From Zancudomyces culisetae HAW-14-8 (lineage: Eukaryota > Fungi > Kickxellomycota), in contig JBNJNM010000006.1 in assembly GCA_052426225.1 (NCBI GenBank), positions 2,108,001 to 2,172,000 of the forward strand: a DNA stretch of 64,000 bases, read 5' to 3'. The notes under the pieces are model-generated. The model was given only the letters and a program-made list of their open reading frames with translations. It made no database searches and had not been told where the DNA came from. Of the stretch, positions 2,062 through 58,223 are shown piece after piece. Both the position numbers and the translations under genes were made by a program. Within the stretch, counting starts at the first letter, position 1, and each line of letters starts with the position of its first letter.

Positions 2062-2125
2062 TCTTTTATTAGTCTAAAGGATAAATAATAAAATAAAATA
2101 ATAGTTTAAATTACTATAACATAAT

Positions 2126-6365: not shown

Positions 6366-6373
6366 ATATTAAA

Positions 6374-11101: not shown

Positions 11102-11327
11102 CGATGTTTACATAAGCCGTCCTAAAAATAGATATAACTTATAGGAACTAAAGAAGCCTGATAATGACAATAAATATAGAAAGGATAAAGAGACCTAAAA
11201 AGGGAGAACGGCTTTTGGCGGGGAAATATCTTTAGCATCTTAAATATCATTTTAGTATCTATTAACAGAAATATGGTGAGGACCTAGGGTCTGGAGAAAC
11301 ACATAAATAAACAGCATATATTATAAT

Positions 11328-12104: not shown

Positions 12105-12113
12105 GGAGGGGGT

Positions 12114-12724: not shown

Positions 12725-13413
12725 TGTTGTAATTTTAGATTTCAGAAAATTTCTCAGGAAATTTCCGCAACTAAACCTACAAAAAGTTCTGCTAATAGAG
12801 GGGAAACGTTACTGGAGAAAGTTATACTTTATTTTAACCAGTCGTTTCTACCTTATAGCTTTTATTTAATTTAGTTTTATGTACTTATTACTTCAATAAA
12901 TGCGATAAAACTGAGTAAAATTACGCCCAACTCCTAAAATTTGGTGTGCAAAACAATTAATTTTGGTCCAAAAATTAGACTCGGATACCTTTCTGATACC
13001 CTTTGAAAATTGTGTTACGCTTCACTACCTATGTTGTTTTTTTGGTTTTAGGTAGGTTTTTGCTCAAATCACAAATTTCAATTTTATAGAGTAAAATCAA
13101 GTATTTTAGAGCTAATTTGTATTTTATTTAATGAATAACTTTTAAAAACAAAAAGATGAAACCACCAAACTTGTGGTGGGGTTACTAGTAATATACTAGT
13201 ACCTGACTAGCTATTTTATTAGAACTTTATATAATAGAAACTTAAAATAAAACAATTAAAACTGAATATTTCTCCAACATTTGGGTAATTTATTACCCAA
13301 GAAATCCCAGATTTCTTGCTCGAACACCCGAGATAACGGTGGTTATTCGGTGTTTGAGAAGCTGTATGCTTTTCACCCAATAGTTTAGCTTGGATAGAAC
13401 TAAGCATACAACA
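12725..13413 (-). repeat. Solo LTR S3, an inverted near-identical copy of the E1 5' LTR
   Basis: 689 bp matching the reverse complement of 31667-32354 with only a few differences; TGTTGTA...TACAACA termini. Confidence 0.92.
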
Positions 13414-13626
13414 TGTTGTTAGTGTCGCAATAAGCCGAATTTTAATGTAAATTCGAATAGTGTACGAGAAATTTCGTTGTACAATCATTGCGGAATGCCA
13501 ATTTTTATATTTTATTATTGCCGTTTAATTTTATTTTAATTTTTTCGACTCAGCTTGAATATATTTTATAGCTGTGACCATTCATTAATGAGGTTCTAGT
13601 ATGATTTATTATTCATACTAACATCA
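13414..13626. repeat. Probable solo LTR S4
   Basis: Termini TGTTGTTAG / CTAACATCA (9-bp inverted repeat, 1 mismatch); abuts S3. No second copy in the window. Confidence 0.4.
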
Positions 13627-22780: not shown

Positions 22781-25079
22781 ACAACTAGATACGTTCATTT
22801 ATTTATATTTTAATGTCTAGATTTTTGATAATATAAAATTATTAAACTTATGTGAAATATTCTCCAACGATTCCCACATCGAATGTTGTTGGTTTAATGC
22901 TATATCGTCAGATAATACTAATAGTTCTAACAAATGTTGCAATTACTTGTTTATCGCAAAAATATTATTTTCTTCGATATTATTTTTAGCGTTTGACCCT
23001 TGATTAGATTTTCGATTTTAAATTGGATTTCGTTCATCAATCGTTGTTGAGGTACAAACTATATTACATATCTTGATATTTTTTAGTATATAATTAACGC
23101 CATGAAAATAATATAACTATTTAATAATTGAAAATTTTAATAAAATATCTATTATTAAAAGATTATAAATTTAAAAACCAATATACAAATTTACATATAA
23201 AATTAAAATTCAACATGTGTTGAGAGCCTGGTTCATAATTATACTAATAAACTTAAAATTTACTGGCTAAAATGTATAACAATGGAGTCACGTATATCGG
23301 TCAAAGTTGGTTGATGAGGTTCACAAGTTGGTAGACATGGCGTGATCAAAACTTGAGCAACATTTGAAATACCCCTACTCATTATAAAGTTCTTTAAGCA
23401 AGTGTGCTGTTTGATACCAATAATATACACACTATTATTGATATTAACTATTTAACACACAGTTAATATATAAAAAAGAATATTAATTTTACTAGTTTAA
23501 TACACATTATTTAAAACATAAAGTTATTTATATTTGTATTATTTTTATATTAGATTGAAAATCTCGATTTTATGAAAAAGTATTCAAACACCAATTTACA
23601 ATTATATTTGATTAATAATATAGTATATCATTTAATATATAATATATATTTATACTAAATGGATTATTATAATATTATAATATTATTGACACAAATGTAT
23701 CAACATTAATTTGTTTAAATTCATAGTATTAAAAATACTATACTGTTAAGATACATGTTGTAAACAAGGTGCTACTTATACCTTAAAACTATAGGTACGT
23801 TAATCTTGATTATCTATAATTAGAGAATATGTAGTATTTTAGAAAATTTTAATATTAGATGGTTTAATATTCATATATTTCTCTAACGTATCCAAACGGA
23901 ATTTCGGAGAATATATATAATTTTTTTTTCAGAGAATATTAATATTAATAAAACTTGAAGAAAATGAAATTTAGCAATAAAATTTTACTATGTAAAATTG
24001 AAATAGTATAAGGTACATGCTATAATTACACTTATCATTTCTATTTGTTAATTATATCATGGATTTTTGAATTCAATTTTTTCATGGATATTTGTTAAAT
24101 TTATATTTTGCATAATTTTTAGAATATGCTTTGTAAATTTTTCCAAAATAAATTTTTAGATTTCATGGCAATTTTGCAAACATGATTTCTATGGCGGATT
24201 AATATATTCGATATTCGAAAATGTAATAAACAATGTGTTATTCATTTGTAAGCCAACATGTAAACTAAAAATATGATCCGGGAATTGGTCATTCCTAACT
24301 CAATTAGTGAATACACAAGTTTCATAACAATAATTATATTCATACATTATTTACAACAATATGATGTTTGTATCATCTGATTCATCGTAGCGATGTTTCA
24401 TTAAATTAAAACCGTAATACATAAATATTATTAATAGTATTGACGTTACATTAGTATTTATGTGTTTACATATGTGATAATTCATTTGATATTATCTATT
24501 TATATTAACAATTGGTTTATATAGTATATTAATTGGTTATAATAGTTTTAGTTCAAACGTGATGATGCAATGGGACAGATTTATTTAATGAGAAATCAAG
24601 CTTTTCAATCTCTTAAACATTGGATTAAGTTTATTTGATTGAATATTCCAACTCTGATTGTGTTAATTAAAAAATTAATAATAACATGCTGAAGCTAACT
24701 TTGATGTATTTGTCATGAGCTTGTTTAATGTGGTGTAAATTGGAGATTATTAAGTACTGCTATAAAATATATTTATTGTTGACACTTGTCAGATAAGTTT
24801 TTCTGAAGATATAAAAAATGCTATTTAAACTAATTGTTTGTAATATATAAATTTAATATTAAAGACTAAAATGTTGCATTAATAGAAAGTAGTTAAATTT
24901 AATGAACTATTTAAAGTAAAGTTGTGTTTTGGTTAGTTTCAATATTAAACATGTTTAAAATCATAATTCTGATTAATCCAAATCATGTTTGATATTATTT
25001 GTTGATTTAAATTGAAACTGTTAAATATTAGTTTATGACAGTAGTATTGTTAATAGCAATATTATTGAGATATTTTTGT

Positions 25080-31239: not shown

Positions 31240-31663
31240 TATCATATAGTGGGCAGAAGAGCATGATGACAAATTAATTAGTCATCATGCAAACAGTCAA
31301 ATTATTAGTTTGCGATAACTAATGAGGATCAGTTTTTTTCACTATCGATGAAAATAACAACATCTAGTTTTTTCTGATGACTCATAGTGTCGCAATACAA
31401 ACGTTTGTTAGTCATATAATTTTAATAGTAATTTATTGTTTTAGTTTAAAGAAGTTTAGTTTCAGTATCTTATTTTAAATTGTTTTTTACTTAGAAAGAA
31501 AAAAAGTATAAAAAAGGGAAATATTTGACAAAATAAAGATAACATATACAGAAAATAATCAGTTAAAAATATAATTACCTTGTTATAGTTAATAACAATA
31601 ACTTAAAGAAATATTATAGAACAATTATAGTAAATACATATATTTTATAAATAAAATATAACA
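31240..31663 (+). repeat. Solo LTR S5 (TGTTATATAGTGG family, decayed start)
   Basis: Starts TATCATATAGTGG (2 transitions from the family start) and ends AAATAAAATATAACA like the E2 3' LTR. Hairpin GCATGATGAC/GTCATCATGC at 31261-31290. Confidence 0.55.
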
Positions 31664-32355
31664 CAAAGTTGTATGCTTAGTTCTATCCAAGCTAAACTAT
31701 TGGGTGAACAGCATACAGCTTCTCAAACACCGAATAACCACCGTTATCTCGGGTGTTCGAGCAAGAAATCTGGGATTTCTTGGGTAATAAATTACCCAAA
31801 TGTTGGAGAAATATTCAGTTTTAATTGTTTTATTTTAAGTTTCTATTATATAAAGTTCTAATAAAATAGCTAGTCAGGTACTAGTATATTACTAGTAACC
31901 CCACCACAAGTTTGGTGGTTTCATCTTTTTGTTTTTAAAAGTTATTCATTAAATAAAATTAAATTAGCTCTAAAATACTTGATTTTACTCTATAATATTG
32001 AAATTTGTGATTTGAGCAAAAACCTACCTAAAACCAAAAAAACAACATAGGTAGTGAAGCGTAACACAATTTTCAAAGGGTATCAGAAAGGTATCAGAGT
32101 CTAATTTTTGGACCAAAATTAATTGTTTTGCACACCAAATTTTAGGAGTTGGGCGTAATTTTACTCAGTTTTATCGCATTTATTGAAGTAATAAGTACAT
32201 AAAACTAAATTAAATAAAAGCTATAAGGTAGAAACGACTGGTTAAAATAAAGTATAACTTTCTCCAGTAACGTTTCCCCTCTATTAGCAGAACTTTTTGT
32301 AGGTTTAGTTGCGGAAATTTCCTGAGAAATTTTCTGCAATCTAAAATTACAACAG

Positions 32356-32772: not shown

Positions 32773-35354
32773 ATGGTTGGGAACACTGGTATAAAAGTGA
32801 TATCTAACCGCGGGGGTCCAGAAATTTCTCCGTTTGATAGCGCAAACTGTCCCGATGTTGAAGACTGGTTGCATACTTACGGTTTAATTTCATATATGTA
32901 TGGGTGGAATGATGCAGAAAAACTCAAGTATCTTGAGCTGTACCTATCCGGGGAAGACAAGAAGTGGTTTAAAAGGCAATTGTCAACTTTGACAACCTGG
33001 GAAGCCGCTTCCAAGAAATTCCTGGAGCAGTTCGGTACTCAAGAAACTGAGTTAACGGCATTGGAAACCCTGATAGATTTGCGGCAAGCAAACTTTAAAA
33101 ACTTTGAGCTTTTCGAAGCCGAGTTTGATAGTTTGGCTAATGCTGCGGGTATTAAGGAGGATTCGAAGACTTGGATGAATCTCTTTCGGAGAGCACTCAC
33201 CCAAAGGAATCAAGTCCTTCTTTCTAAGGCTGGGATTACCAAGGTAAAGGAAGCTAAGGAGAAACTCCTCGAGGAAGAAAAACTCGAGAAGGCTCTGAAT
33301 CTTTCGGCACCAAAGAAAACCAGAGCACCCGCAAAGGTAGAAAAGAAAGAGCAAAGTCCTCCAAAAGCGGATACTTGCTGAAGGAAAACTTTGCTGGGGA
33401 ATTACAGAGAACGTTGAAGTATATGCAAGGTTTGCAACTCAACATTCTCGACAGGATGGAAAAGCTTGAGGCCAAATCTCATGGGGAAAACAATAGGAAA
33501 CCCCAGAGAGACTTCAAGCCAAGAATCCTGGAGTGCTTCAAGTGTAAAAAGCCTGGGCACCATGGGACACAATGTCCTGAAGCAGCTGGAGGGTCGAAAG
33601 ACTTAGGCTGTATTGAGCTATGCTCTGAGATGTCCGACTCAGAGGCGGAAGCGTTGTTTGGAGTGGAGAAAAGGCCCAGAAGCCCCTCCCCAACAGACAA
33701 CGGCCCTGTAAGGGGTAGAGTTAGGACAGGAGAAAATCCTCCGGGACAGGTTACCGGAGAGATTAGGGAGGTTGGTATGGAGGTCGAAAAAGACCAAAAT
33801 CCACCTCAGGCAATACGAGTGGTTCCGAGAAACCCTGCAAAAGACAGGTTCTCTTTCCAGACGGAAACCAACTCTAAAACAAAACGCTACTTTGCTGATA
33901 AAGCTGCTATAGTACGCGAGAGAGGTGCGGCGACTGGGAAAACTCGCCAGACACCTGGGGACAAGGAAGAACTCCCAATAAAGGAGTTTTCCATTGAGGA
34001 AGAGTTTAACAGGATTCAACCAAAGTTAAACTATGCCCACCTCCTCAAGGTTTCCCCAATGGTTAGGAAGAGGATGTTAACATACATCCAAAAGTTGGAG
34101 GAGCAAGAGTTGGGAGCCATTGAAGATGAAGGTAGTCGCTATACAAACTGTAAAGCGTACATCGACGTCTTTGGTGAATACCACGTTGCTATCCTAGATA
34201 CTGGAGCAGCCTGCTCAGTAGTCACCAACGACTTCCTAAAAATGCTGGGTTTGGAAATAGACACTATGGATACGCCCACTATAGTGACAGCAGATGGGGC
34301 GAAACATTCCACACTTGGAATAGTTTCGGGTGTACCTTTCAGAATCGCTGGGTACATCTTTACTGGAGATCTGTTGGTCATGGAGCGGGGTATTAATCAG
34401 CTAGTCTTAGGCATGGACTGGTTGACTAAACATGGTGCTATGGTTGACTTGGGCGGTAAAGAATTAATATTACCCAAGGGCGACAAGGAGATTGCTTTGA
34501 CACTCTTTACGAGCAAGAAAAGCAACCTCGTAGATTATTCGGGGTACGAACTCTACGGGATAGCAAAGGAGGTGTCAACTTCAACATCTGAAGTGGCACC
34601 AGAAGTACCCCAGGGGCTCCTGAATGTGCTGGAAAAGAATAAGGATCTGTTTGTGACTGATCTTATGGATCTAGAACAGACCGATGTTTTGGACCACCGC
34701 ATTGAGGTTGGAGACGCCAATCCGGTGAAGGTTCGCCCTTACAGGATTCCGCACCATCTACGGGAGCAGGTGCGAGGGGAACTGGAGGTAATGGCAGAGA
34801 AAGGCATAATTGAGCCCTGCCAGTCCGATTGGTGCGCCCCAGTAGTGGTGGTAACTAAGAAAAACGGGAAGTTGAGAATTTGCTCAGATTACCGTAAACT
34901 TAACTTAGTTACCCGCAAGGATCTGTACCCATTGCCAATAATTGATGAATCTTTGCGGCATTTGGGAATGCAGGGGTTTTTAGCGTAATGGACGCTATGA
35001 GCGGGTTTTGGCAGGTCAAAATGAATCCCGCAGATAAACACAAAACAGCATTCGCTCTACCAGGAGATGGAATGTACTGTTACAACGTTATGCCTTTTGG
35101 ACTTTGCAACAGTCCCGCTACATTCCAGAAACTGATGGAGAAAGTGTTGGCAAACGTTTTATGGCGTTGTGCGATTGTGTTTATCGACGACATAATTGTG
35201 TACTCCAAGACCTGGGAGGAACACAAGGGACATTTAGAAGAAGTTTTTGAATGTCTCAGGAAGGGTAAAGTGCAATTGCACAAAGATAAGTGCGAATTCG
35301 GCAAGACCGAGATTCGTTACTTGGGGCATACCATTGGTAAGAATGGTATAAGTA
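32773..35354 (+). CDS. Gag-Pol of E1 (two 1-nt frameshifts at ~33375 and ~34950; cut at element F)
   Basis: CCHC CFKCKKPGHHGTQC, ILDTGAA, RT WCAPVVVV, MPFGLCNSP, FIDD and YLGH. Confidence 0.88.
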
Positions 35355-35477
35355 TGTCAGAATCGCATTATTTACCCATAAGTTTTAATATTTATTTTTA
35401 ATCATATTTAATTACCTTTGAATCCTAACTTGGGAACATTAAGTTTCCCAACTTAAATAAATTAGTTTCCTGACATT

Positions 35478-35488
35478 TTGGGAAACTT
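35478..35488 (+). promoter_or_regulatory. Self-priming PBS of element F
   Basis: TTGGGAAACTT is the exact complement of AAGTTTCCCAA at 35441-35451 inside the LTR. Confidence 0.8.
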
Positions 35489-35510
35489 CTAATTATTGGT
35501 TGAAGAGTTA

Positions 35511-36464
35511 ATGATGGTCCACCAATTAGATGAGATCGCAAAATTAGCTATGCAACAAGCTTTGCAAGAAAGTCAAGCTCAAGCCCAGGCTCAAGCCCAG
35601 ACACCCGCCCAAGTCCCCAGTCAGTTGCAGAATTTACCTGCACCAAATCCGCAGCCAAGGATTGATGGTATCAGAATACCAGAAATCCAGAAATACTCAG
35701 GAGAATCAGGAAGGTTCCGAGCCTTCACCGCCGAGATCAAGCGCCAGTTCTGGGCCAGACCAGACGTGTTCCAGAGTGACCATAACAAGATATGGTTCAT
35801 CAGTTCTCACCTTGCCGGTCATGCTGCCCTGTGGTTCGATAACCTTATCGATACCCAATCACCGTTGCTCTCAGATTTCAAAGGGTTTGAGAATGAATTT
35901 CAAAAGAGATTCTCAGATCCTGGCCACCAAGCCCGAGCTATCACCCAGCTTCATAGTTGCCGCCAGTCCCAGCGTTCCGTCCTGGAATTTGCAACCGAGT
36001 TCAGAAACCTCGCCTCTCTCAGTGGATTCAACGAGCCAGCCAAAATTCACCTGTTTTACATCGGATTGGATACTAGCCTTGTCCAGCGCCTTGCCACTGA
36101 ACCGCTACCAAACACCTTGGACCAGCTCATTGATCAGGTGATTGAGCTTGAGAACAGAATCAATGCCCGCAGTGCCTACCTGCCCAAGAGAAGCGTCCCA
36201 TTCCGCAACTGGAGTACTCCGGCTCCACCGGTCTTCCCCCGTCCAGCCATGCCTGTCCCAGATCACCAGGCTCCTGAACCAATGGACGTTGATGCCGTCA
36301 CCTCCCGTCCAAGAGCACCGCTAGATACAGCCGAACGTCAGAGAAGATTAGCCAATAATCTTTGTCTATACTGTAGTCAGCCGAACCACATTCTCCGTAA
36401 CTGTCCGCTCCGCAGGCCAAGACACCCTATATCTGGGGTGCCAAAAGACAGTGCTCAGATGTAG
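35511..36464 (+). CDS. Gag of element F
   Basis: IPEIQKYSG, CRQSQRSVLEFATEF, PEPMDVD and CCHC CLYCSQPNHILRNC. The exact start ATG is uncertain. Confidence 0.88.
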   Translation: MMVHQLDEIAKLAMQQALQESQAQAQAQAQTPAQVPSQLQNLPAPNPQPRIDGIRIPEIQKYSGESGRFRAFTAEIKRQFWARPDVFQSDHNKIWFISSHLAGHAALWFDNLIDTQSPLLSDFKGFENEFQKRFSDPGHQARAITQLHSCRQSQRSVLEFATEFRNLASLSGFNEPAKIHLFYIGLDTSLVQRLATEPLPNTLDQLIDQVIELENRINARSAYLPKRSVPFRNWSTPAPPVFPRPAMPVPDHQAPEPMDVDAVTSRPRAPLDTAERQRRLANNLCLYCSQPNHILRNCPLRRPRHPISGVPKDSAQM

Positions 36465-39400
36465 TCCGGGAGTTACTCCTGAGCGTAGCTAATAATTCTA
36501 ATATTTCTAGTAATAAATTTCATATTAAAGTTGTTTTAAATAATCTATACGAACTTGTTGCATTAGTGGACTCCGGTGCTTCAGCCAACTTTATTCGTCA
36601 AGATTTATTAGAAAAACTAAACCTCCCAACCAAAGAAGCAGAAAAAACCATCGTCCTAGAAAGTGTTGATGGTCACCAGATATACCCAGGGGGCATAAAT
36701 GTCAAGGTTGATAATGCCCATATCAAGTCCGGTCCTAACCACTCTGAACACCTAGACCTTATCCCGATTCCAACCAATCACGCTGACATTATTTTTGGAT
36801 TACCCTGGTTACGCAAACACAATCCTAGTATAACTTGGCCAGACCTCCAGATCCACTTCGACTCTGACTTTTGCAGTACAAATTGTGTTGATACCCACTC
36901 CATCCAGGCCGTGTTCAAGTCACCTGATGAACCAGATCCAGATCCAGTAGAACAAAATATTAGCCAGAATACGTCCACAAACCCAACTATCCTCCAAAGG
37001 GTGTTGAATAGATTATCAACTACCCTGCTTCCACACAGTGCCAAGTTGCTCGAATCGGTCAAGTTGGACGATTCAAACACTGAAAATCAAAGATTTTCAC
37101 CGCCTCCGTCTCCTGATCTCCCCAGCCCAGCTCCGTCAAATCCATACGCCAGAATTGAAGAGATTCTTCCTGTACCTGTTCCTGCACCAGTCCAATCAGT
37201 CACTCCAGAACCTGAAACCCAAAGTTTGCCCAAACCCGCAGCTATTGAGAACCCAGTAGATAACCATGTTGTCAAGCGAATTCCTGAGCCCCGTCGTCCA
37301 GTAACCCCTGTGCCAAAAGTACCACTCAGACCTGAACTTCCCAAAGCAATCCTGAAGAAAATTGAGCCAAGAGAACCAGTCGTCAGATCCCGGCCATTTC
37401 ATAAAAATACCCCAGTCACCACCCCCGAGCCAGAATATTCCTTGGATCCAGATCCTGTAACTTTTGCCGTTTCTGAGTCCCCGCTAGAGTACTTGGAAGA
37501 ATTTCCGCAACTTCCAGTAATATACTCTGAATTCAAGGAAGTGTTCAATCCCAAGTCTGCCGTTTCACTTCCTCCTCACCGCCGTTATGACTGTCCTGTC
37601 AACACCAAAGAGGGTTACACCCCATACTGGGGGCCAATATACCCGCTATCGGAAGTAGAGTTAGAGTCTCTAAGAGGTTACATCCGCGAAAACCTCACCA
37701 ATGGCTTCATCAGACGCTCTGTCTCCCCTGCTGGTGCACCAATCATGTTTGTAAAGAAGAAGTCTGGTGACTTGCGCCTTTGTGTTGACTACCGCCGATT
37801 GAACGAAGCTACCATCAAGAATAGGTACCCATTACCTAGGATTGATGAGGCGTTCGATCGGCTGCGTACAGCCAAGGTCTTTACAAAATTGGATCTCAAA
37901 GGTGCCTACAACTTAGTGCGGATCAAGGAAGGTGACGAGTGGAAAACTGCATTTAGGTGCAGATATGGCCACTTTGAGTACCAGGTCATGCCATTTGGCT
38001 TGACAAATGCTCCCGCCACCTTTCAGCACTTTATCAATGATGTGTTACGAGATGTATTGGATCTCTATGCAATTGCATACCTTGACGACATCTTGATATT
38101 TTCCAATGACACTGACACTCACATCTCTCACGTGAAATCTGTTCTGAAAAAGCTGCTTGAAAATGGTCTGTACTGTAACGCCGAAAAATGTCACTTCCAT
38201 ATCAGGGAAGTTGAATTTCTAGGCCATGTTGTGTCTTCAGATGGAATAGCCACCGATCCTGCTAAAGTCAAGTGTGTAAAAGAATGGCTACCACCCACCA
38301 ATGTTAAGGAGGTCCAGAAGTTTCTCGGTTTTGCCAATTACTACCGAAAGTTTATCCCATACTTCTCGCTGAAAGCCCTGCCAATCACAAGACTTCTGAA
38401 AAAGGATACACCGTTCGTTTGGAGTAAGGAGGCAGGTGAAGCCTTTAATACTCTTATCCAGGATCTCACCACTTCCCCCGTTCTCAGATACCCTGACCCA
38501 GGAAAACAGTTTATTCTGGAAACTGACGCCTCAGACTACGCCATTGGGGCTGCTCTGTCCCAAGAAGATGAAAACGGTGATCTCCGTCCTTGTGCCTACT
38601 ATTCTTACAAACTCAACACTGCCGAATCCAACTATAATATCTATGACAAGGAACTCTTGGCAATCATCAAGGCTCTCAAAGAATGGCGACATCATCTGGA
38701 AGGCTCCTCCATCCCGTTCAAGATTCTTACTGACCATAAGAATTTGGAGACCTTTAAAAATCTGAAGTCACTCAACAGAAGACACGCAAGATGGTCTCTT
38801 GATCTCAGTAGATTCAGCTTCATCATAACCTACAGGCCTGGATCTCAAGGAGGCAAACCTGACGCTCTTTCTCGTTTGCCCAATCACACACCTGATAAGG
38901 TCGCCAACAACAACATCATAGGCGAAGACCACTTCATAGACATTATCAGCATAGTGGACAGTGATTTTGCTCAAGAAATCGCCAAATCCAGCAAAGCCCA
39001 TCTAGAAGGATTATTGGATGCCGCAAGATACCAGAGCAGCCATAAGTCTAACGAGCCAGTAGAAGTTGAAGATGGGATTGTAATGCTTGGAAACCGTGTT
39101 GTCGTCCCCGACAAAATGAAGCCGCAAGTTGTAAGTTCTAGACATGACAGTGGCCCAGCCGGCCATTTTGGCGCTAAAAAGACATTGGAGCTCGTGGAAC
39201 GAGACTTTTGGTTTCCAGGAATGCGCAAATTTATTAAAGAGTTTGTTCAAACCTGTGATACATGCAATAGATCAAAGGACAGAAGACACAAAGTTTACGG
39301 TAACTACTTCCGCTACCCGCTCCCTCAGGCCCATGGAAATCTATCACCATGGATTTCATAACTGATCTTCCTCCATCCAACAAGCACACTACTATTATGG

Positions 39401-40392
39401 TAGTTGTAGACAGGTTCACTAAAATGAGCCATTTCATCCCGCTTAAGAAGCTGCCATCCTCAGAAGAAACTGCCTCCGCCTTTTTCACACATGTATTCAA
39501 GCTTCATGGACTTCCAGACGTCATAATCTCAGACCGTGGAACCCAATTCTCGTCCAAATTTTGGAGTTCACTATTCAAACTGCTCAAAGTTGATACTAGA
39601 ATGTCTACAGCCTTCCATCCAGAGACAGACGGTCAAACGGAGCGGGTGAATCAAACATTGGAACAGTATCTACGCTGTTTCATCAACTATCAGCAAGATA
39701 ATTGGTTTGAACTGCTCCCAATTGCCGAATTTGCTTATAACAACACTCTCCACTCCAGCACTAATACTTCTCCTTTCTTTGCTCTATATGGTTACCATCC
39801 AAGATTTGATCCTCAAATCACTAAAAACGTTCACGTCCCCAGCGCTTCTGATAGGATAAAACAACTCAAAGAACTTCAATCAGCCCTCACATCCATACTT
39901 AACAAGAAATCTCAGGAATATAAAAAGTATGCTGATGTAAACCGATCTGAACATCCAAAGTATAAACTAGGTGACAAGGTTTGGCTATCCAGCCAAAATA
40001 TCAAAACTCAAAGGCCTTCTAAAAAGCTTGACCATAGACTTCTAGGCCCATTCACTATTTCAAAAATTATCAATCCTGTTTCTGTCCGTTTAGACCTCCC
40101 GCCATCAATGAAAATCCATAACACTTTTCATGTCTCGTTATTGGAACCGTATATCGAACCCAGCAGTAACCGCAGATTAATAAACAGTCCTCCTCCACCT
40201 CTAATCATAAATGGAAATAAAGAATATGAAGTTAAGGCTATTTTGGATTCTAAGCTTGTACGGGGTAAAAAATATTGCTTGGTTGATTGGAAAGGCTTTG
40301 ACATAAGTGAAAGAAGCTGGGAGCCGATTGAAAACATAAACGCGCCTCAACTATTGAAAAAATACTATAAGACATATCCCAACAAACCATAA
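36440..40392 (+). CDS. Pol of element F (PR, Pro-rich linker, RT, RH, IN, chromodomain), -1 frame to gag, with one 1-nt frameshift at ~39302
   Basis: LVDSGAS, YLDD, ETDASDYAIGA, HHCC, MDFITDLP, SDRG, GPF, EYEVKAILD...VDWKGF...SWEP. Confidence 0.9.
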
Positions 40393-40507
40393 GAGCAACA
40401 TTATATTACATTATTTAACCAATATTATACCTAAATACTTATCAAAAAAAACTATAAAAACAACCTAAAAACAACTAAAAAGCATAAAAAATTATAAAAG
40501 AAAAAAT

Positions 40508-40774
40508 AAAAAAGAATGAACTTAGGAGGGCGCTAACGTCTTGGGCCACACAATCACGTGATTCGAATTAACTGCTCGAGATCCCGAAGGAGTTATCGGA
40601 GAGGTGAAACGGTCCGGTACTAGTCCCGAAAGACGTTATCGCGCACATTGGCCCCGTGAAACATCACATCCACTCTACAGCTAATTACTTCCCAATTACG
40701 GTCTTACAGCGAAGGATCGAACCAGGGTCCTGCAGAATACAAGTTCGACGCCTTAGCCACTCGACTATAAGCTC
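40508..40774 (-). ncRNA. Candidate Pol III transcript inside the F 3' UTR: degenerate tRNA-like head + structured body + T6 terminator
   Basis: A box TAGTCGAGTGG (40767-40757) at tRNA position 8, D-stem GTC/GGC, B box GGTTCGATCC (40723-40714), partial acceptor pairing CTTA/TAAG. No T4 run until TTTTTT at 40513-40508. Confidence 0.6.
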
Positions 40775-40954
40775 ACATTTTTGTCCAAGATATTATTTTT
40801 ATATATTTAAAATATTCTTTGAAGGGGGGATAATGTCAGAATCGCATTATTTACCCATAAGTTTTAATATATATTTTTAATCATATTTAATTACCTTTGA
40901 ATCCTAACTTGGGAACATTAAGTTTCCCAACTTAAATAAATTAGTTTCCTGACA

Positions 40955-43299
40955 ACTGGAATATCTAGGACACACTATTTCCCAAGACGGTATTGGTACT
41001 AGTCCAACCAAGATAGAATCTGTAAAAAAGATTCAAGTACCTAGTAACGTAAAAGAACTGCAATCGGTTCTTGGTCTCACCGGTTACTATCGTAAATATA
41101 TACCTGGATATTCGAAAATTGCTAGCCCACTTACGACTCTATTACGGAAAAATAATCGCTTCGCATGGGGTCCGGAACAAACTTCAGCACTAAACGAGTT
41201 AAAAAATAAGCTTATTACTGCTCCAGTATTGGGTTTTCCTATATGGGATAAAGAGTTTGTACTTACTACGGATGCTTCTGTGGTAGGACTCGGTGCAGTA
41301 TTATCACAAATTATTGATGGACAAGAACGGGTGATTGAGTATGCTAGCCGTACAACAAACAAGGCCGAAAAAAACTATAGTATTAGCCATTTGGAGGCTT
41401 TAGCAGTTATTTGGTCAGTAAAAAAGTTTAAGTATTACTTATGGGGACGTAAGTTTAAGATACGTACAGACCATAAGTCATTATTACAAATATTTAATGG
41501 CACGGAACTTACTGGTAGAATTGCCCGCTGGGCAATGATACTGCGTAACTACGATTATTATATTGAGCACCTTCCTGGGAAAAATAATCCTGCTGATACA
41601 TTGTCTAGAAATAAAGAAGATTTTAATATGAAAGAAAATATCGAATTGGATATACTTTCAATGGATTTAGTTGATTATATAGATATAATACAGTACCTTA
41701 CAACAATGCAGTATCCTAAAGGAGCTTCAGCCAAAGAAAGAGAGAAAATACGTAACCGTTCTAGACAGGTCATTTAAATCAAGGAAAGTTATTTAAAAAA
41801 GTAAATAAAGAATTAAAAGAAGTTCTACATGAAAGGAATTTTAAGGAAATTGTCACAAATATTCATAATGAAGGGCATGAAGGAATTGAAAACACTTGGA
41901 ATAGAGTTTCAAGTAAATACACTGGAAAAAATTTATATCAAGATGTTGTGGATATTGTAAAATCGTGTCACATTTGTCAACTTCACAAAGGTGGAAAAAC
42001 GAAAAAAAATAAATTAGTGCCAATTGTTTCTTCAAGACCGTTTGAAATTTTTGGAATAGATGCTATTGGACCAATTGCACCAATTACAAAAAATGGGAAT
42101 CGTTATATTTTGACAGCAATTGATTATTTCACTAAATGGCCAATTGCCATTCCAGTTTCTAATTTGCTAAGCGAAACAATTATAAATTTTATTATTAACG
42201 AAATTATCGCAAATTATGGAGTCCCTCAACAAATAATTAGCGACCGTGGTTCAAGTTTTGTTTCGGACAATACAACAAATGTTTTTAAATGGTTGGGACT
42301 GAAACATAGTCCTACAACATCCTATAGGCCACAAAGCAATGGCCAGGTCGAACGATTTAACAGAACATTAGTAAACATACTTATTAAACAATGTAAAAGC
42401 GATAAGGAAAATTGGGATGCATATATTTGGAAGACTCTTATGGTGGTAAGATCACTAAAAAATAAATCTACAGGTTATACGCCTTCTGAGTTGTTATATG
42501 GAGTAAATATTTGTTTACCTTCTACTTGGACTTACAATGGCGAGATTGAAAATGTGGAAGAAAATATTTTGAGTAGAATAAAAAGTTTTAAAATAGATAT
42601 TCCTGAACTACGTGAACTTGCGTTCAAAAACTCGATAATTGCGAAACGATCGATGGAAGAAAGGTATAACCGCGATGTTCAACATTTTAAATTTCGAATC
42701 GGCGACACGGTATTGAAACGAGTAGAAATGGAAAGAAGCAAATTCGAAAGTTATTGGGAAGGCCCCTATACGGTTCAAAGAGTATTCTCAAAAGGAGCTT
42801 ATATTATTAACGATCATCAAGGTAACCGTGAATTAGTAAACGGTGATATGTTAAAAATGTACTTCACAAATAAGAACATGATACCCGAAGTAACAACTAC
42901 GCTTAAATCCAAACTAAAAAGGTTTAAAAATAGAGAGCGGGATGAGGGCATCCACGCTTAAGGGAGGAGGTTCTGTTATATAGTGGCTAGAGCTACCTCT
43001 AGACATTATTAATTATAACTTACCAATTACATATTTATTTCTATATATTAATATTTAGGTTTATCAATTAATATAAGTTAATATTTATTATAGGTTATTT
43101 AGTATATTATGTGTTGCCTAGTTTTTTTTATCCTTCTGGATTTTTTCTACAGCAACATTCTGGTTTATTATTAATATTTAGTTTATGTTTTAAGTTTAAG
43201 TATATATTTAGTTTTCAAGTATATAATAGTCATTTAATTATAAGTATAAATAGGGCTAGGAAACTAGCTATGAAAACATCATCAAATAAAAATATAACA
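40955..43299 (+). mobile_element. Element E2: 3' half of a Ty3/Gypsy element of a different family from E1 (end of RT, RNase H, integrase, PPT, 3' LTR 42974-43299)
   Basis: LEYLGHTISQDGI, TTDAS, GIDAIGP, SDRG, WEGPY; PPT AAGGGAGGAGG; LTR TGTTATAT...ATATAACA unrelated to the E1 LTR. Confidence 0.88.
40956..42961 (+). CDS. Pol C-terminal half of E2 (one 1-nt frameshift at ~41773)
   Basis: ORFs 41229-41777 and 41948-42961 plus their open upstream extensions give continuous RT-RH-IN homology. Confidence 0.85.
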
Positions 43300-43782: not shown

Positions 43783-43853
43783 GCGTTAGTAGTATAGCGG
43801 TAGAATAGTTGCCTTCCAAGCAATTGGCCCGGGTTCGACTCCCGGCTGACGCA
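43783..43853 (+). tRNA. tRNA-Gly (anticodon TCC)
   Basis: Acceptor GCGTTAG/CTGACGC, anticodon arm GTTGC-CT-TCC-AA-GCAAT, T arm CCGGG-TTCGACT-CCCGG, TTTTT terminator at 43858-43862. Confidence 0.96.
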
Positions 43854-46007
43854 ATCCTTTTTATTAAATTACTATTTTCTTTTATTGTAATATATTGTAG
43901 ATGTCATAAGTTATCTTTATATTTTTCAGCTAATGTGATGGCTGAGTTTCGTATAGCACTGATTAAGTCAGTTATACTCAGTTATCCGATCACTTCATTA
44001 TTCATGTTTGCCGTATGAAGAATGTTTTATATACCTTTTATTATTGATTAAACTAATGTAACACTAAGTAAACTATATCAGTAAGGTGCTATTTTCAATT
44101 ATTAAGTATATAAAAACGTATATGTAAAGTATGTTCTTGTTAGAAAAGCTAAAGATGCTATTTTCGTTGTCCGCTCTTGTTTTATTCGGTTTGTTATTCA
44201 CTTTACTATCTTAGATCATTTTTACTATTTATTCTGCTAGCTATCAATGGTAGTTATCTTCTACTAAGGAATCGCAATTGATTCGCTAACAAAAAGTATG
44301 TATCCGTTGTACTACATTATATCATATTTTTCATCTATTTGTATCTTAATATCATTCTTCTAGATAATTTATATCAATTGGAGATTCCTCAATTTTAATA
44401 TAGACAATTAGGATAGAAATGTAGCATATTGATCAGCGAATAAAATATTGAGGGTATTGCAATAGTATATTGTAGTTTATCAGCTACATACTGTTAGGTA
44501 GTGAATTTACTGATTTCTTTAGTGGTATATAATTTATAATGAAAGCAAGAAAAATTTTTAGGAAAAAACGATCTAGGATAGTATATTGAAGAGCAAAGAA
44601 CATATATCGAGAGTCGGCCAACTAAAAGAAAAATCTTTAGCCTTTTTATCTGAATTTATTTATATACGTTTTTTATACATACTAATATTGCTAGTGTTTA
44701 AAGACGAGTTTATTTACAATTGATTTTATTATTATTCTAACAAAATAAATAAAATTGAATTATACGTTTAACGGCAATCAAAACTTGTGATGATATCCGG
44801 GACTTGAGTATAGCTGACATCATCTTGTGATATACCTTAACTCAGCAATCATATAATTTGAAAAATATATCAATTAATGTTGAGGTTGGTTTTTCTTGTG
44901 ATTGACTTTGTTTACTTGATCCCGACATATCAAAATATGGGTACGTTTATAAAATTCTGTTACAGTCTTTTTCTTTTGTTTAAAACTATTTATAGAATAA
45001 TTTTTTTGTCGACATCCTAAAGTATTTTAATAATTATACCAGATGTATTTTTTTACGTATAGGATGTGAGAAACCATGTATTGAGAGAGGGGACACGTTA
45101 ATTATTTTACAGCTTTATTTTAAAGGCAATATTACATTTTGTTATAGAAACCATTCAAAGAAATTACCATATTTTAAAGAGAACAAGTTGATACTAATTT
45201 GATAAAAATGATACCTGTTAAGCTTTTAATAAACCCATAGAAACTGTACTTTATAGTATACTATCTAGTGTTTAATATTATATGATTTATAATAACAGCA
45301 ATTTTAACATTCAATACGGCAATTAGAACTAGATACGTGGCCCGAGACCTGAGCATAACCGTTATAATCAGTGCTATACTTACCTCAGCCATTCACCTTA
45401 ACAGAAAAATATTTCTGATAAATAATAACATGTACATTATATTACTTTATAATATTGATAATCCTTTTGTTGGTGAATTGACCACGACTCAATTCATAAT
45501 GCTACTGCGATTGAGAGCAATGTCTTGAATAATTAATAAGAACCTCACTTTTCACACCATGTGTAATGTAGAACTAGAATAAAATGTATGTGAGTGTGAA
45601 CAGAAAAACGCGGAAATGTTAGTCTCTTTTTTAAAGCATATATTTTAGCTTGTAATTACATACAATTTTATCAACTGTTAAATACTCAAAAACAAACATA
45701 ATTACAAGTTATCTCGACCAGAGTAATCTTGCTGAATATGTGATATTTCAAATTCACAAGCAACATGTCTGAAAAATATAAAGTTGATTAAAACTACACA
45801 TCAATCCTGAAATTTTTAACTAGTTTAATAACGCACTTTAGTTTTTTAAAAACGGATTTTTGCTAAATAACACTTTTAATATATTACATTCTTACTAGTG
45901 TTATCCCAACTAATATATAAACGAGATTGGAGGTATTTATTTTTGAGTAAACAGTAATAAAAGTTAATCAAAAAAAAAAAACATATTAATTTTTTAAAGA
46001 GAAAAGT

Positions 46008-53087: not shown

Positions 53088-54312
53088 TTTCTTTTTTTTT
53101 CCCCTTCACATTTGTCACTTTTTTTTTGTTTTTTTCTGGTCCAATGGTCTATTTAGTGGTAACCTTTTTTTATGACCCTAATAATAGACACTTTTTTTTC
53201 ATACTAGCTCTATATTCTACTCTTATAGTATAGCTTTTCACTCTATAAATATATCACCTATAACATATCCTGCTATGGTTTAATGCGTTTGCTAAAAGCA
53301 ACATTGAATTTTAATTCGCATCTGCCATGTTCTCAATTAACCAGATGTCCCCTCCATCCATTATTGGTTTGAAGCCACAGGTTCGTGTTGTACAGGTCAT
53401 ATTAGCCTCTTCTTCTCCCTCTTCTCCCTCTTCTCCCCCTCTTCTCCCCGCCTTTTCTGAAAATTAGTTGGACTATTTATCTTTTAAGTTTCACTTTGTA
53501 TCAAAAATTGGCTTTGAGGCTATTTTTCAGAGTATTTTAAAAGGATCTATTTTTGTACACCTTTAGTCTACAAGATATAAATTTTTCCCGTGCCCAAGTT
53601 CGAATTTCTGCTATCAGAAATATAACATCAACCGAAATTAAATGTCTATTGGTGTTAAAGCTTTTATTTGCCAATTAATTATTATTTACGAGGCATTTGA
53701 AACAAGAATGTTATTTTACATTCACTACAAATCGTCTCCAAATTCCCAATTGAAGAACAGAGTAATGATAAAAAGGATTACTATGCATTTCAAAGTGGCT
53801 GCTTGGGACGAGCAAAAACTAAAAGATGCATAAGAAAATCATACACTTGCTGAACCTCTTGAGATTGGCAAGCACGAGAGTTTGAGCTTTAATGATTTTG
53901 GATATCGTCCAAGTTTGCAATATTATCTCTTGTTCCAATGAGGTAATAATCCTATGATTGAGAGACTTTTGTTTGAAAACAAATATCTGTTATAGCGACA
54001 GTGTAAAGTACAAGACAAAATAATACCGAATAAAAAATAAAGACACATAATTCGATTCTAAAATATCTAGGTGACTTTGAGTATTATCCCTTTCCTACAA
54101 GCAATTTCAATAAAGTATCGCCTTTTGCTCTGACCTTTATATTCTCAACTATACCGTCTTTTACTTTTTTTTTAATACCTTAAAGCGTCTAAAATATCAT
54201 TGATATATATCTCTTTGTCCCGAGTAAACAATTTTATTAGTGAATTAAATAATTATATACATATAAATAAATAAAAAAATAAATATCTCAAAACGGTAGT
54301 AAAACTCCGAGT

Positions 54313-55698
54313 ATGCTTACACGAACGCTTACAATATTGCTGTTGGTTGCAGCTACAAATAAAGGAAGTACAATAGGCCACTCTGCTACCAAGGAGAAGG
54401 TTAGATATCTTGGTGTATCTGGCTCCGATAATGATGGAGGAGATCCCAACCAGATAAAACTTAAACCTGTTATGGTACAACCAGGATATAATGGGGGTAC
54501 AGGGCCTGGGTCTGGAAATGGAAATGGTGGAATGGATATTGGGTATGGTTCTGGAAGTGGAAATGGAAATGGAGGTGGTTCTGGCACTGGAGGAGGCGGT
54601 GTTGGATATAGTTCTGGAAATGGAGGTGGAAATGGAAGTGGAAATGGTGGTGGAAATGGGGGATCGGGTGTTGGATATAGTTCTGGTAATGGAGGTGGAG
54701 GTGGAATAAATATTGGGTATGGTTCTGGAAGTGGAAATGGAGGTGGTTCTGGCACTGGAGGAGGCGGTGTTGGATACAGTTCTGGAAATGGAGGTGGAAA
54801 TGGGGGATCGGGTGTTGGATATAGTTCTGGAAATGGTTCTGGAAGTGGGAATGGTAATGGTAATGGTAATGGTGGATCAGGTATTGGATATATTGCTGGT
54901 TCTGGTACAGGATCTGGCGGTGGTTCTGGAGCTGGTGGAATAGGTTTTGGATATAGTTCTGGAAATGGAAATGGAAATGGTAACGGAGGTGGAGGAGCAG
55001 GCATTGGATATAATTCTGGAAATGGAGGTGGAGGTGGAAATGGAAATGGAAATGGAGGAGCAGGCATTGGATACGATCCTGGTTTCGGTTTTGGTAATGG
55101 TAATGGAGGAGGTGTTGGAGGAGGAGGTATTGGATATGGTTCTGGTATTGGTATTGGACCTGGATTTGGACCAAAGATAAGAAATCCCAATGGACCCATT
55201 TATGAAGAAAAAGTATACTTATCAAAAATCAACGACTATACAGTTAATGGATGTGTAAAAACCAAATATGTTGATGTAACCATATACGCATGCGTCGGAA
55301 GTGAAAGTGCAACATGTGAAAACGAAGGTAGGTGCATTACCCAGTTGGTGTTTTATAACTTTATACAAAATTATTTCTAAAACCATTTCAATGAAATTGA
55401 AGCTTTCATTATACAATCTAAATCGTTATTTAAAAAAATAGCAACGCTGGAAAGCACCGAGTTACTAATGGGAGACTTAGTCACTGAAACGTCTACAGAG
55501 TTTGTAGAAGAAACTCAGTTTGTGTCTGATGGGGATTTTACGGAAGATCTTACTGAAATTTTTACAGAAGTCGCCACGGACACAATTACACTGATTACAG
55601 AATTCCAAACATCCACCCAAAACCTGGTTGTAATTCCAGGAAGCGGAACAGTGGACTTGGCTACAATCACCGACTTTTTACCCGAAATAACACCATAA
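54313..55698 (+). CDS. Putative secreted Gly/Tyr/Asn-repeat structural protein; predicted exons 54313-55327 and 55442-55698 (~423 aa)
   Basis: Hydrophobic N-terminus, repeats of GG(V/I)GY(S/G)SGNG, a Cys-containing segment. G|GTAGGT donor and ATAG acceptor join in frame to a Thr/Glu-rich ORF. Confidence 0.72.
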
Positions 55699-55946: not shown

Positions 55947-58223
55947 CTAAAATCCCAAAACGTTCAAAAACAGTGGTAGTTGTTTTAGCCGCGACTTCAT
56001 AAAAGAGGGTAATTCTAAACCCATTTTTGCAGTGGTACAATGGTTGTCAGGGTCATGATAAACAATTATATCAGTAGCAGAGTCCACTTGAAGCCTTGAA
56101 CCATCGTTAAACAAAATGGTAAAAAGATATCTATCGTCATCAGCAGAGGACAGGTTAGGTGGCAAAGAATGTGCTATACACCAACCAATTTTGGGGATGT
56201 GGCAGTAATTATATCTTTTATCGCTTTCTTTGTCCACAATGCTCCTTGCACCATTGATATTAGATAAGCTAACAGCCTTATGAGGAAATGATGGTATCTC
56301 GGGTTTATAGGATGAGTGGTGACCATTAACGGTAAATGTAGAATTGGAAGCGGAGAGAGATGTTGATGTAATTGGTTTGGAAAAAGCAGAAAGCAGTTTC
56401 TTTGACAGAGAGGGGGGTACAAACGTGTCCAGGTTAACATTAGATGAAACTACAATTGGATAGGTGACGGATCCAGTATAGTCATAACATCTTGGATCTG
56501 TTTTTTGCTCAAAACCCAAAGCGATGTTTTCAACCGATTGGCAGATAGAATAAAGTTTTTTAACATGTGCAACCACTGCAGAAAGCTTTGAAGGTACGTT
56601 TTCAGGAAACTTCAAAGATTTGGTTCCAGAAAGGGACGAAGATGAGGCAGAAAGAGGTAAGCGGTGGAGTTCATCAGGAAGATCGGATGTTGACGGGATT
56701 TTAATTTCCAATATTTTTTTGGTTGCAGAGTAGGTAACTTTGATTTTGTTGAAAAAATCTACAACAAGATCAGCAACTGGTTCATTCATCATAAACATTG
56801 CCTTGGCCTTTGAGCTTTTTACTACAATTTTGGATGTTTTTGATAGAACTAACTCCACAAACCTATATACATATCGGACCTGCCTCTCAGTAGTAGCCGA
56901 GTTTATGTACGAATATCCTAGCCTCATGCGAGCCAAGGCCTTATCTAAAGTTAAAATGGCTGTTCCAGCCGGGTATATGTACAATAGCGCGGCTATCGGA
57001 TCGATCAGCAATAGTTTTTTATCATCATGAAACTCCGCTTTTATTTTCTTGTCTGAAATAATCTCAATTGTTGCATATTTGGTTTTTTGTTTGAATGGCG
57101 CCAAATACTTGGTATTAAATACTATCAATTCATCCTTAGTAGGTCCTAGCCGAGCTGAAGATTTATTTATATCCAAATTTTTGATTTTGCTGACAATATC
57201 ACTACCACTACCGCTTCTATTACCATTACCTCTGGCTCGTGTTACATTTTCGGCAATATCAATAAAATCCGTATCGCCTCTGATTGTGCTATACTGAGGC
57301 CGTTTTTCTACAGCGTATCCGCTTTTTTTCGAGGACAATCGCTTCAGATTTCGCGTACCCAGAATCGGTTTTAAAAATGGATGATTGAATAGATTAGAAA
57401 TGCTTATTCTACTGTTTGGGTCGCGCACAAGTAGGCGTTTGGTCAAATCTACTGCTTCATCGCTGATCCCCAGCCTTTTTAAACCGCTGACAATTCTACC
57501 TTCATCATTCAACTCCTTCTCACTAGGCTGCTTTCCCCTTAAAAACGTAACCATTAAACATCCCAATGCCCACATATCCGCCGCCAATCCATAGGGTTTA
57601 CGCTCCATTACTTCTGGCGATATATAGTTTTGCGTTCCACAAAACGTTATTGGTTCGTTGTTTAGCTGCGTTGCCAGTCCGAAATCTATAATCTTCACTT
57701 CCATTTCGTTGTTTATCACCAGGTTTTTCAGTTTCAAATCCCGGTGAATGATCTTGAGTTTGTGTAAATATGCTATCCCACGCCCTAATTGTAACATTAT
57801 CCCTCTAATCTCCTCTTCGCTCAGCCCTGCCCTTCCCTCCAGTTCGTTTCGCTTTTTTAAATACTCGTACATATCGCCTTGTTCGCAAAGCTCCATAATC
57901 AAATATACCTGTTTTTCATCTTCAAAAAAGTCGTACAGCTTTACAATCGATTCGTGGTGTAACTGGCTATGAATCCCCACTTCTGCCGCTAGACGTGCCC
58001 TTAGAGCTTCGTTTTTTAATCGACTTTTTTCTGTTATTTTTATTGCCACTTGCTTGACACCCTCGCCGAATCTACCACCGTCCAATACTGATGCTCGATA
58101 TACTTTTCCAAAGCCACCAGAGCCTATTTCCGATTCTAGCTCAAAATCCTATGTTTACATTTTTAGTGTTATTTTTTTTACACACATCTTTTAAATTGAC
58201 GCTTGATTACAACCTACCTCCAT
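55947..58223 (-). CDS. PLK4: Polo-like kinase of PLK4/SAK type; predicted coding exons 58223-58218 (ME) and 58148-55947
   Basis: IGSGGFGKVY, VAIK, HRDLK, DFGLA, FCGTQNYISPE. Cryptic polo box start FNTKYLAPFKQKTKYATIEI; PB3-like IGWC...LFNDGSRLQV. Confidence 0.78.

What the first reader, a model, noticed from the sequence alone, without database searches (positions are those of the whole stretch)
40508..40805. Antisense tRNA-headed, pseudoknot-capable Pol III unit carried in the 3' UTR of chromovirus F
Seen: a GC-richer island lies between the F chromodomain stop (40392) and the PPT. On the minus strand it has a TATATAAA 24-31 nt upstream and a tRNA-like head (40774-40700). The head has correctly placed A and B boxes but degenerate anticodon and T stems. 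A ~185-nt body free of T4 runs follows, then a T6 terminator. The body has crossing helices: TAACGTCTT (40534-40542) with AAGACGTTA (40630-40638), extended by GCGC/GCGC, and GGGCCA (40543-40548) with TGGCCC (40649-40654). This is a pseudoknot topology on either strand. The related chromovirus A has no such region, so it is accessory cargo. Known: tRNA-derived SINE heads keep A/B boxes while losing the cloverleaf, and Cassandra elements carry 5S-derived Pol III promoters. Inference: an autonomous LTR element may encode its own ~260-nt antisense RNA. Possible roles are a copy-number brake or Dicer substrate, a ribozyme or packaging structure, or a TFIIIC-bound insulator. The RNA also contains UUGGGAA, a 7-nt match to the F PBS, which may be chance.
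Basis: partly seen in the sequence, partly recalled or inferred. Interest (0 to 1): 0.82.

Follow-up and report, generated by a model that had tools for sequence, protein, structure and literature searches.

The report
Fungal retrotransposon carries antisense tRNA-like promoter
A jumping gene of an insect-gut fungus carries, backwards in its tail, a tRNA-like promoter with a stop signal 260 bases further on, and related jumping genes carry similar backwards promoters at their ends, so these elements likely borrow the host's tRNA-gene machinery, possibly to shield themselves from silencing.

Summary
The anatomy is real. On the minus strand of the 3' UTR of chromovirus F lie a TATA, perfect A and B boxes at tRNA spacing (0 of 20,000 shuffles), a T4-free body and a T6 stop. 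The host matches Zancudomyces culisetae. Four other sequencing runs hold 95-99% identical pieces of the unit. One contig joins it to the chromodomain, so it is family cargo rather than a one-off insertion; free copies could not be tested because no genome is held. No target-site duplication was found. The pseudoknot is weak: crossing helices occur in 60 of 3,000 shuffles, folding energy is ordinary, and the one variant in the long helix breaks a pair on the antisense strand. No ribozyme or Rfam match. New: 7 of 111 related chromovirus loci (4 families) keep an antisense A/B-box pair at the LTR edge with no conserved transcript, and a second clade keeps a B box there. Best reading: a captured tRNA-derived promoter, likely kept as a TFIIIC/TFIIIB docking site or barrier. 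Neutral SINE passenger and antisense-RNA regulator remain rivals. Transcription is untested. Closest known: Helenus/Cassandra TRIMs, SINEs, BLV Pol III cluster.

The parts
35355..35475 (+). 5' LTR of chromovirus F (TG...CA), 1 difference in 121 nt from the 3' LTR
35478..35488 (+). Primer-binding site, complementary over 11 nt to LTR 35441-35451 (self-priming of Tf1 type, inferred)
35493..36464 (+). gag
36401..39361 (+). pol: protease, RT, RNase H, integrase zinc finger; the frame ends there
39304..40392 (+). Integrase core, SH3 and chromodomain, in another frame than the rest of pol (this copy is broken at this point)
40393..40507 (+). A-rich linker (T-rich on the minus strand)
40508..40513 (-). 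T6, first Pol III terminator-type run after the head
40514..40699 (-). Body, 186 nt, no T4 run, no Rfam match
40530..40542 (.). GCGC plus one arm of the 9-bp helix
40543..40548 (.). One arm of the 6-bp helix
40552..40563 (.). 12-bp perfect palindrome around CACGTG; the inner 10 bp are kept in run X5
40582..40591 (-). Possible UUCG tetraloop hairpin B
40623..40634 (-). Possible UUCG tetraloop hairpin A; overlaps and excludes the 9-bp helix; perfected by the variant at 40631
40630..40644 (.). Other arm of the 9-bp helix, bulge and GCGC
40649..40654 (.). Other arm of the 6-bp helix
40700..40774 (-). tRNA-like head without an intact cloverleaf
40714..40723 (-). B box, 0 mismatches to the consensus used (consensus recalled)
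40757..40767 (-). A box, 0 mismatches to the consensus used (consensus recalled)
40798..40805 (-). TATA-like element upstream of the head
40821..40830 (+). Polypurine tract
40834..40954 (+). 3' LTR

Best explanation
The region is a tRNA-derived promoter unit (TATA, A box, B box, T6 stop) that sits antisense in the 3' UTR of chromovirus F and occurs in other copies of the family; it was likely captured from a SINE-like element and is likely kept because it would dock TFIIIC/TFIIIB next to the polypurine tract and LTR edge, where it would act as a barrier against silencing chromatin. Shown: the sequence anatomy, its presence in other runs, its linkage to the chromodomain, the lack of a TSD, and antisense A/B boxes at the LTR edge of other chromovirus families. 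Inferred: the SINE-like origin, selection on the boxes, factor binding, the barrier role, and synthesis of a 262-267-nt antisense RNA as by-product or second function. Being internal, the unit is copied with every round of reverse transcription (established LTR biology).
For: Perfect boxes at tRNA spacing, 0 of 20,000 shuffles. Pieces in 4 of 7 runs laid (X1, X2, X3, X5). X2 contig 40365-40581 joins chromodomain end and unit; X5 covers most of the B box unchanged; X6 keeps the TATA region beside PPT and LTR. No shared flank repeat longer than 7 AT-rich letters. 7 of 111 related loci with at least 150 nt past the stop carry an antisense A/B pair, all 18-42 nt inside the LTR. They form 4 families whose integrases are only 66-75% identical in DNA, and the boxes are among the best-kept U3 blocks, while the distance to the first T4 varies from 15 to 1,029 nt; that points to selection on the promoter, not on a product. 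A second clade (L056, L094, more decayed L075) has a B-box/T-arm-like block at LTR +40 to +47. Well-supported branches force at least 3 gains or losses of the trait. Barrier activity of tRNA genes and TFIIIC sites is recalled knowledge, not tested here.
Against: In F the unit lies outside the LTR, so it is not beside the 5' LTR promoter that a barrier should protect. A profile of the 7 LTR heads does not find the F head at E up to 10, so these are analogues, not shown homologues. The X6 contig, about 97% identical over PPT and LTR, diverges where the A box begins (30 of 91 loose letters shown). Element A and most relatives have no such unit. A promoter-only role does not explain the apparently constrained body. 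Pooled variant sites do not separate linker from unit (p 0.13-0.77). The relaxed scan has a high minus-strand background (27 hits in 177,908 coding bases).
Confidence: 0.4

Rival explanations
1. A neutral passenger: an ordinary tRNA-headed SINE (or Pol III gene fragment) inserted once into an ancestral F copy and has since been copied along without benefit.
For: Head-body-T-rich-tail layout under 300 nt fits a SINE (definition in PMC3531059, passages). The known copies are only 1-4% apart, too young for boxes to have decayed. X6 shows a changed head start and X3 a contig that leaves the unit at 40556 for unrelated DNA, which could be a truncated free copy. Folding energy is ordinary.
Against: No TSD. 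No second copy in 64 kb. The body differs at 2 of 175 sites against 7 of 93 synonymous sites in run X1 (p=0.0095; different contigs, possibly different copies). Other chromovirus families keep boxes at one place and orientation across 25-34% integrase divergence.
Confidence: 0.3
2. The product matters: Pol III makes a 262-267-nt structured RNA, wholly complementary to the F 3' UTR, that pairs with genomic RNA (copy-number brake, small-RNA source) or acts as a VA-RNA-like decoy of the silencing machinery.
For: Closed unit with a clean T6 and no internal T4. Two UUCG-loop hairpins on the minus strand and none on the plus strand (3 of 5,000 shuffles reach two; chosen after the fact). The variant at 40631, seen in two runs of different studies, strengthens hairpin A from -2.7 to -5.6 kcal/mol. 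Apparent constraint on the body. A retrovirus with Pol III units exists (BLV; abstract of PMC12498455).
Against: In the predicted ensemble both UUCG hairpins have probability 0.04 or less on the minus strand. No excess stability. No family match. The LTR-edge units of relatives have no common transcript length.
Confidence: 0.2
3. The constrained part works on the plus strand, as a packaging, dimerisation or reverse-transcription signal in the genomic RNA (long helix, palindrome, possible switch or pseudoknot); the head is a remnant.
For: The 9-bp helix has probability 0.87-0.95 on the plus strand against 0.01 or less on the minus strand. The 40631 variant is a tolerated G-U pair on the plus strand. 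A 12-bp self-complementary palindrome lies at 40552-63, and its inner 10 bp are kept in X5.
Against: With the variant, the full-length plus strand is predicted to drop the 9-bp helix (0.05). Element A manages with about 20 nt of UTR. This reading does not explain perfect boxes, TATA and terminator.
Confidence: 0.1

Closest known systems
Helenus TRIMs (TRIMp3; Kojima 2024, PMC10886601, parts 1-4 of 6 read) and Cassandra
   Same: An LTR element carrying a tRNA-derived sequence whose A and B boxes are conserved while the cloverleaf is not; proposed origin by SINE insertion.
   Different: Helenus and Cassandra are short non-coding TRIMs with the promoter inside both LTRs, proposed (shown for Cassandra) to transcribe the element itself. 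F is a 5.6-kb coding chromovirus; its unit is internal, antisense and closed by its own terminator. The paper notes that 'not a few LTRs' resemble tRNA but followed up only TRIMs, and argues autonomous partners must use Pol II promoters.
tRNA-derived SINEs (SINE2; definitions in PMC3531059, passages)
   Same: Head with A/B boxes, unrelated body, simple-sequence tail, under 700 nt.
   Different: No TSD, no dispersed copies seen (not testable genome-wide), no LINE-derived tail identified; it moves as part of an LTR element.
Pol III units inside retroviruses: BLV miRNA cluster (abstract of PMC12498455); foamy-virus Pol III miRNAs, adenovirus VA RNA and MHV68 TMERs (recalled)
   Same: A Pol II retroelement or virus genome housing a type-2 Pol III unit.
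   Different: Those make proven RNAs with miRNA-type hairpins or decoy folds; here no RNA is shown, no long hairpin is predicted, and the unit is antisense to the genomic RNA.
tRNA-gene-targeting LTR elements (Ty3, DGLT-A, Skipper-2; PMC5006619, passages)
   Same: Ty3/gypsy elements, including chromoviruses, that end up beside Pol III promoters.
   Different: Those insert next to host tRNA genes; F carries the promoter inside, upstream of its PPT.
Antisense cargo between pol and the 3' LTR (Retand, Grande; PMC11963269, passages)
   Same: Family-wide antisense cargo at the same position.
   Different: That cargo is protein-coding, in plant non-chromoviruses.

Membership tests
SINE (SINEBase definition) | Short (<1 kb) with head, body and tail and internal A/B boxes | tested here: met
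SINE (SINEBase definition) | At least 60% identity to a tRNA over at least 60 nt | tested here: inconclusive
   38 of 71 (54%) to the only host tRNA on hand, tRNA-Gly, which need not be the source; no Rfam tRNA hit
SINE (SINEBase definition) | Interspersed, about 100 or more copies per genome | not testable with these tools
   No genome held; one copy in the 64-kb window
SINE (SINEBase definition) | Insertion by LINE machinery (TSD at the insertion, LINE-like tail) | tested here: inconclusive
   Longest shared flank words are 7 AT-rich letters, but an old TSD can decay; no partner LINE sought
Helenus / TRIMp3 | tRNA-derived sequence inside the LTRs | tested here: not met
   The unit lies upstream of the PPT; the LTRs are 35355-35475 and 40834-40954
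Helenus / TRIMp3 | Short non-coding element (about 0.3-1.3 kb) | tested here: not met
   F is 5.6 kb with gag, pol and chromodomain
Functional tRNA gene | Cloverleaf recognised by tRNA finders | tested here: not met
   ARAGORN default, 95 and 90% negative; Rfam negative
Known self-cleaving ribozymes (hammerhead, HDV-like, twister, pistol) | Match to the family's covariance model | tested here: not met
   No hit in the unit at E up to 10 in three Rfam scans
Chromovirus (Ty3/gypsy, Tf1/sushi type) for the carrier | LTRs, gag, PR-RT-RH-IN order and C-terminal chromodomain | tested here: met
Chromovirus (Ty3/gypsy, Tf1/sushi type) for the carrier | Self-priming: PBS complementary to the LTR | tested here: met
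   11-nt complement; the mechanism itself is inferred
TFIIIC barrier / extra-TFIIIC site | TFIIIC occupancy and blocking of heterochromatin spread | not testable with these tools
   Needs ChIP and reporter assays
Pseudoknotted RNA | Covariation in both crossing helices | tested here: inconclusive
   One variant site in the helices among the laid contigs, not compensated; too few sequences

The most novel reading that the evidence does not exclude
Coding chromoviruses have repeatedly captured tRNA-derived Pol III promoters and kept them antisense at their 3' end or U3 edge as self-carried anti-silencing devices: a TFIIIC barrier for elements that insert into heterochromatin, which in F has grown into a terminated, structured antisense RNA gene, a retrotransposon counterpart of viral Pol III RNAs.
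Probability: 0.3. Interest if true: 0.78.

Novelty: new variant of a known kind. Interest (0 to 1): 0.52.

Why it matters
Chromoviruses are thought to aim at heterochromatin through their chromodomain, which raises the question of how they stay transcribable there. A built-in tRNA-type promoter at the LTR edge, found here in several lineages and in one orientation, offers a concrete and testable answer (mutate one B box). It would also extend Pol III promoter capture from non-autonomous TRIMs to coding LTR elements. If the F unit is transcribed, it would be a rare case of a retrotransposon with its own small antisense RNA gene. If it is only a SINE passenger, it is an ordinary nested insertion.

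Tried and rejected
Own-genome search: no genome held, so copy number and free copies stay open. Rfam: nothing in the unit at E up to 10, and no tRNA hit in 8 related loci at E up to 1. Exact patterns from the unit: 0 matches in metagenome contigs and viral contigs. BLASTN of the unit against 142 fetched loci: one hit at E 0.44, nothing significant. Sequencing runs: no RNA holder listed; X5 is probably DNA, so there is no evidence on expression either way. The head 40722-40793 is not covered by any laid contig, which proves nothing. X4 and X7 gave no piece of the unit. A short motif from the loose end of X3 has no match in the window. Viral-contig scans with the C-terminal alignment and with L046 found no relatives. 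The records behind the metagenome loci are not held, so their 5' LTRs could not be read. Earlier scan findings: three look-ups, nothing. One search used a wrong count of synonymous changes (9, should be 7); its p-values are discarded and redone. mis-indexed two helices; redone. The careful tree did not finish; only the quick tree is used (97 rows, loci under 40% identity or short matches left out, L075 not labelled). Considered and rejected by inspection against recalled motifs: HDV-like fold (no P4 between the 3' strands), hammerhead (no CUGAUGA core), RNase P/MRP, telomerase template, group I intron. The 7-nt PBS match is treated as probable chance.

Full report
Context. The window is fungal: its mitochondrial EF-Tu is 100% identical to a protein named Zancudomyces culisetae, with other Harpellales next at 79-82%. 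No genome is held for it. Element F spans 35355-40954 with LTRs differing at 1 of 121 nt and with gag, protease, RT, RNase H, integrase, SH3 and chromodomain. Its PBS is complementary over 11 nt to its own LTR, as in self-priming Tf1-type elements (recalled). This copy is not intact. Integrase is split over two frames near 39304-39361. The 5-bp flanks differ, and the two flanks are RT fragments of two different elements that overlap in the same motif, which suggests recombination between two F insertions or an assembly join.

Observation. The promoter is well beyond chance: perfect A and B boxes at tRNA spacing arose in 0 of 20,000 shuffles of the UTR, and a strict scan of the window finds only this unit and the true tRNA-Gly. 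The box consensus used is recalled. The head is not a tRNA: ARAGORN needs an 85% threshold, at which it also makes 66 calls in the 142 loci, and Rfam finds nothing. Element A has about 20 nt between stop and LTR, as stated.

Structure. The helices are only moderately unusual (108, 60 and 13 of 3,000 shuffles for a 9-bp helix, a crossing pair and an abutting pair), and overall folding is ordinary on both strands. The ensemble prefers the 9-bp helix on the plus strand (0.87) and the 6-bp helix on the minus strand (0.88); pseudoknots are outside this model. The only variant inside the helices, at 40631 in runs X1 and X5, is G-U on the plus strand and A-C on the minus strand, uncompensated. Forcing the 9-bp helix on the minus strand then costs 7.6 instead of 3.4 kcal/mol. 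The same variant perfects a competing UUCG hairpin on the minus strand (-2.7 to -5.6 kcal/mol). Two such hairpins occur there, reached by 3 of 5,000 shuffles, a test chosen after the fact. Against this, both hairpins have ensemble probability of 0.04 or less. So the pseudoknot is unproven, and no single fold is established. No ribozyme or other Rfam family matches.

Family cargo or one-off insertion. Of 7 runs laid, 4 hold pieces of the unit at 95-99% identity. These are X1 (40531-40705, 2 other letters), X2 (40365-40581, joining the chromodomain end to the unit, its listed changes all before 40450), X3 (40466-40556, then unrelated DNA) and X5 (40572-40721, 3 changes, plus a varied 27-letter end). 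X6 holds TATA, PPT and LTR at about 97% and then diverges where the A box begins. All are contigs at low depth, and none spans the whole unit. No TSD is visible. In X1 the integrase piece shows 7 synonymous changes in 93 sites and 3 replacement changes in 333, while the body shows 2 in 175 (Fisher p=0.0095). The two pieces are separate contigs and may come from different copies, and pooled linker-versus-unit tests are not significant (p 0.13-0.77). The unit therefore travels with the family, with weak to moderate signs of constraint. Whether free copies exist is open.

Relatives. The nearest integrases found are 59% identical or less. Of 142 loci fetched, 137 include the chromodomain end and none has sequence similarity to the unit. 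But 7 of the 111 with at least 150 nt past the stop carry an antisense A/B pair with 0-1 mismatches (L022, L035, L041, L045, L046, L048, L084). Five further relaxed hits are scattered, and the coding background of that scan is 3 plus- and 27 minus-strand hits in 177,908 bases. The stricter scan gave 4 hits in 134,165 bases against 2 in 202,725. All seven lie 18-42 nt inside the 3' LTR and form four families with 66-75% integrase DNA identity. The boxes, the TATA and the block behind it are the conserved parts of U3, and the distance from B box to first T4 ranges from 15 to 1,029 nt. A profile of the seven finds L056 and L094 (E 0.0025, 0.004) at the same LTR position, where a B box with T-arm context but no proper A box remains; L075 is a more decayed case seen by eye. 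The profile does not find the F head. On a quick tree of 97 rows the trait needs 5 changes, at least 3 forced by well-supported branches; direction and origin were not tested. The hosts of these loci are unknown (no close named relative).

Mechanism. The shared elements across these lineages are orientation (antisense), position (at the PPT/U3 edge) and retention of the boxes without a cloverleaf or a common transcript. That fits selection for TFIIIC/TFIIIB docking. Such sites act as chromatin barriers in yeasts (recalled), which would suit elements whose chromodomain is thought to direct them to heterochromatin (PMC5006619, passages). I give this 0.4. In F the unit is outside the LTR and has a closed body, so a neutral SINE passenger (0.3), a functional antisense RNA (0.2) and a plus-strand cis signal (0.1) remain. 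None of the binding, transcription or barrier steps is shown.

What is known. Helenus and Cassandra show Pol III promoter capture in LTRs of non-autonomous TRIMs (PMC10886601, parts 1-4 of 6 read; supplements not seen). F fails both of their defining features. SINE membership is undecided (criteria from PMC3531059, passages). BLV holds Pol III units (PMC12498455, abstract only). Passages of PMC2864245 on Tcn1-like chromoviruses mention no tRNA-like LTR sequence. Passages of PMC12611240 on the host's assemblies report retroelements as the main repeat class and do not contain the word SINE. Eight literature searches, read as listings only, showed no paper on antisense tRNA-derived promoters in coding chromoviruses. 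The library lacks most subscription journals, Repbase could not be searched, and Kojima notes that many Repbase LTRs resemble tRNA, so prior annotation is possible.

Verdict. The feature is real and is a new variant of a known kind. Interest 0.52, raised by the recurrence in other chromovirus lineages and limited by the lack of expression data and of a genome.

Noticed in passing
L022:3585-3665, L035:3367-3450, L041:3585-3669, L045:2615-2699, L046:3546-3627, L048:3564-3647, L084:488-571 (minus strand): Antisense tRNA-like A/B-box unit at the very start of the LTR in four chromovirus families of unknown host; arguably a cleaner case than the finding itself.
   Followed up: partly
L056:110-140, L094:2453-2479, L075 about 1120-1150 (minus strand): B box with tRNA T-arm context but no proper A box at LTR +40 to +47 in a second clade; these elements also seem to have a dUTPase-like frame after the chromodomain (motif recalled, not scanned).
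   Followed up: partly
L048:346-420 (minus strand): A further tRNA-like stretch about 3.1 kb upstream of the integrase stop, within the element.
   Followed up: no
window 35165-35353 and 40956-41135: The two flanks of F are RT fragments of two different Ty3 elements (47% and 34% GC regions) that overlap in the YLGH motif; no TSD. Two F insertions at nearly the same RT position followed by recombination, or an assembly join.
   Followed up: partly
window 40552-40563: 12-bp palindrome with a CACGTG core (bHLH/Cbf1-type site on DNA or dimerisation site on RNA, both recalled); inner 10 bp kept in run X5.
   Followed up: partly
window 12725-13421 and 31659-32354: 697-bp inverted repeats, 98.7% identical, 18 kb apart, enclosing decayed retroelements and a TIR element.
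   Followed up: no
window 1652-12499: Ty3 element (387-nt LTRs, 99.5%) with a second Ty3 element (254-nt LTRs at 6076-6329 and 11077-11330) nested in its integrase.
   Followed up: no
window 43783-43853 and 43887-45445: tRNA-Gly(TCC) gene followed about 35 nt later by an element with roughly 190-nt terminal inverted repeats.
   Followed up: no
window 19723-22813: Chromovirus relative with an LTR 75% like that of F, truncated after RT; it has no 3' end here to compare.
   Followed up: partly
window 55947-58148 (minus strand): Kinase with a Plk4 polo-box 2 match (E 3.5e-10) in a fungus without flagella (recalled).
   Followed up: no
window 54283-55380: Gly/Ser/Asn-rich tandem-repeat reading frame of 365 codons.
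   Followed up: no
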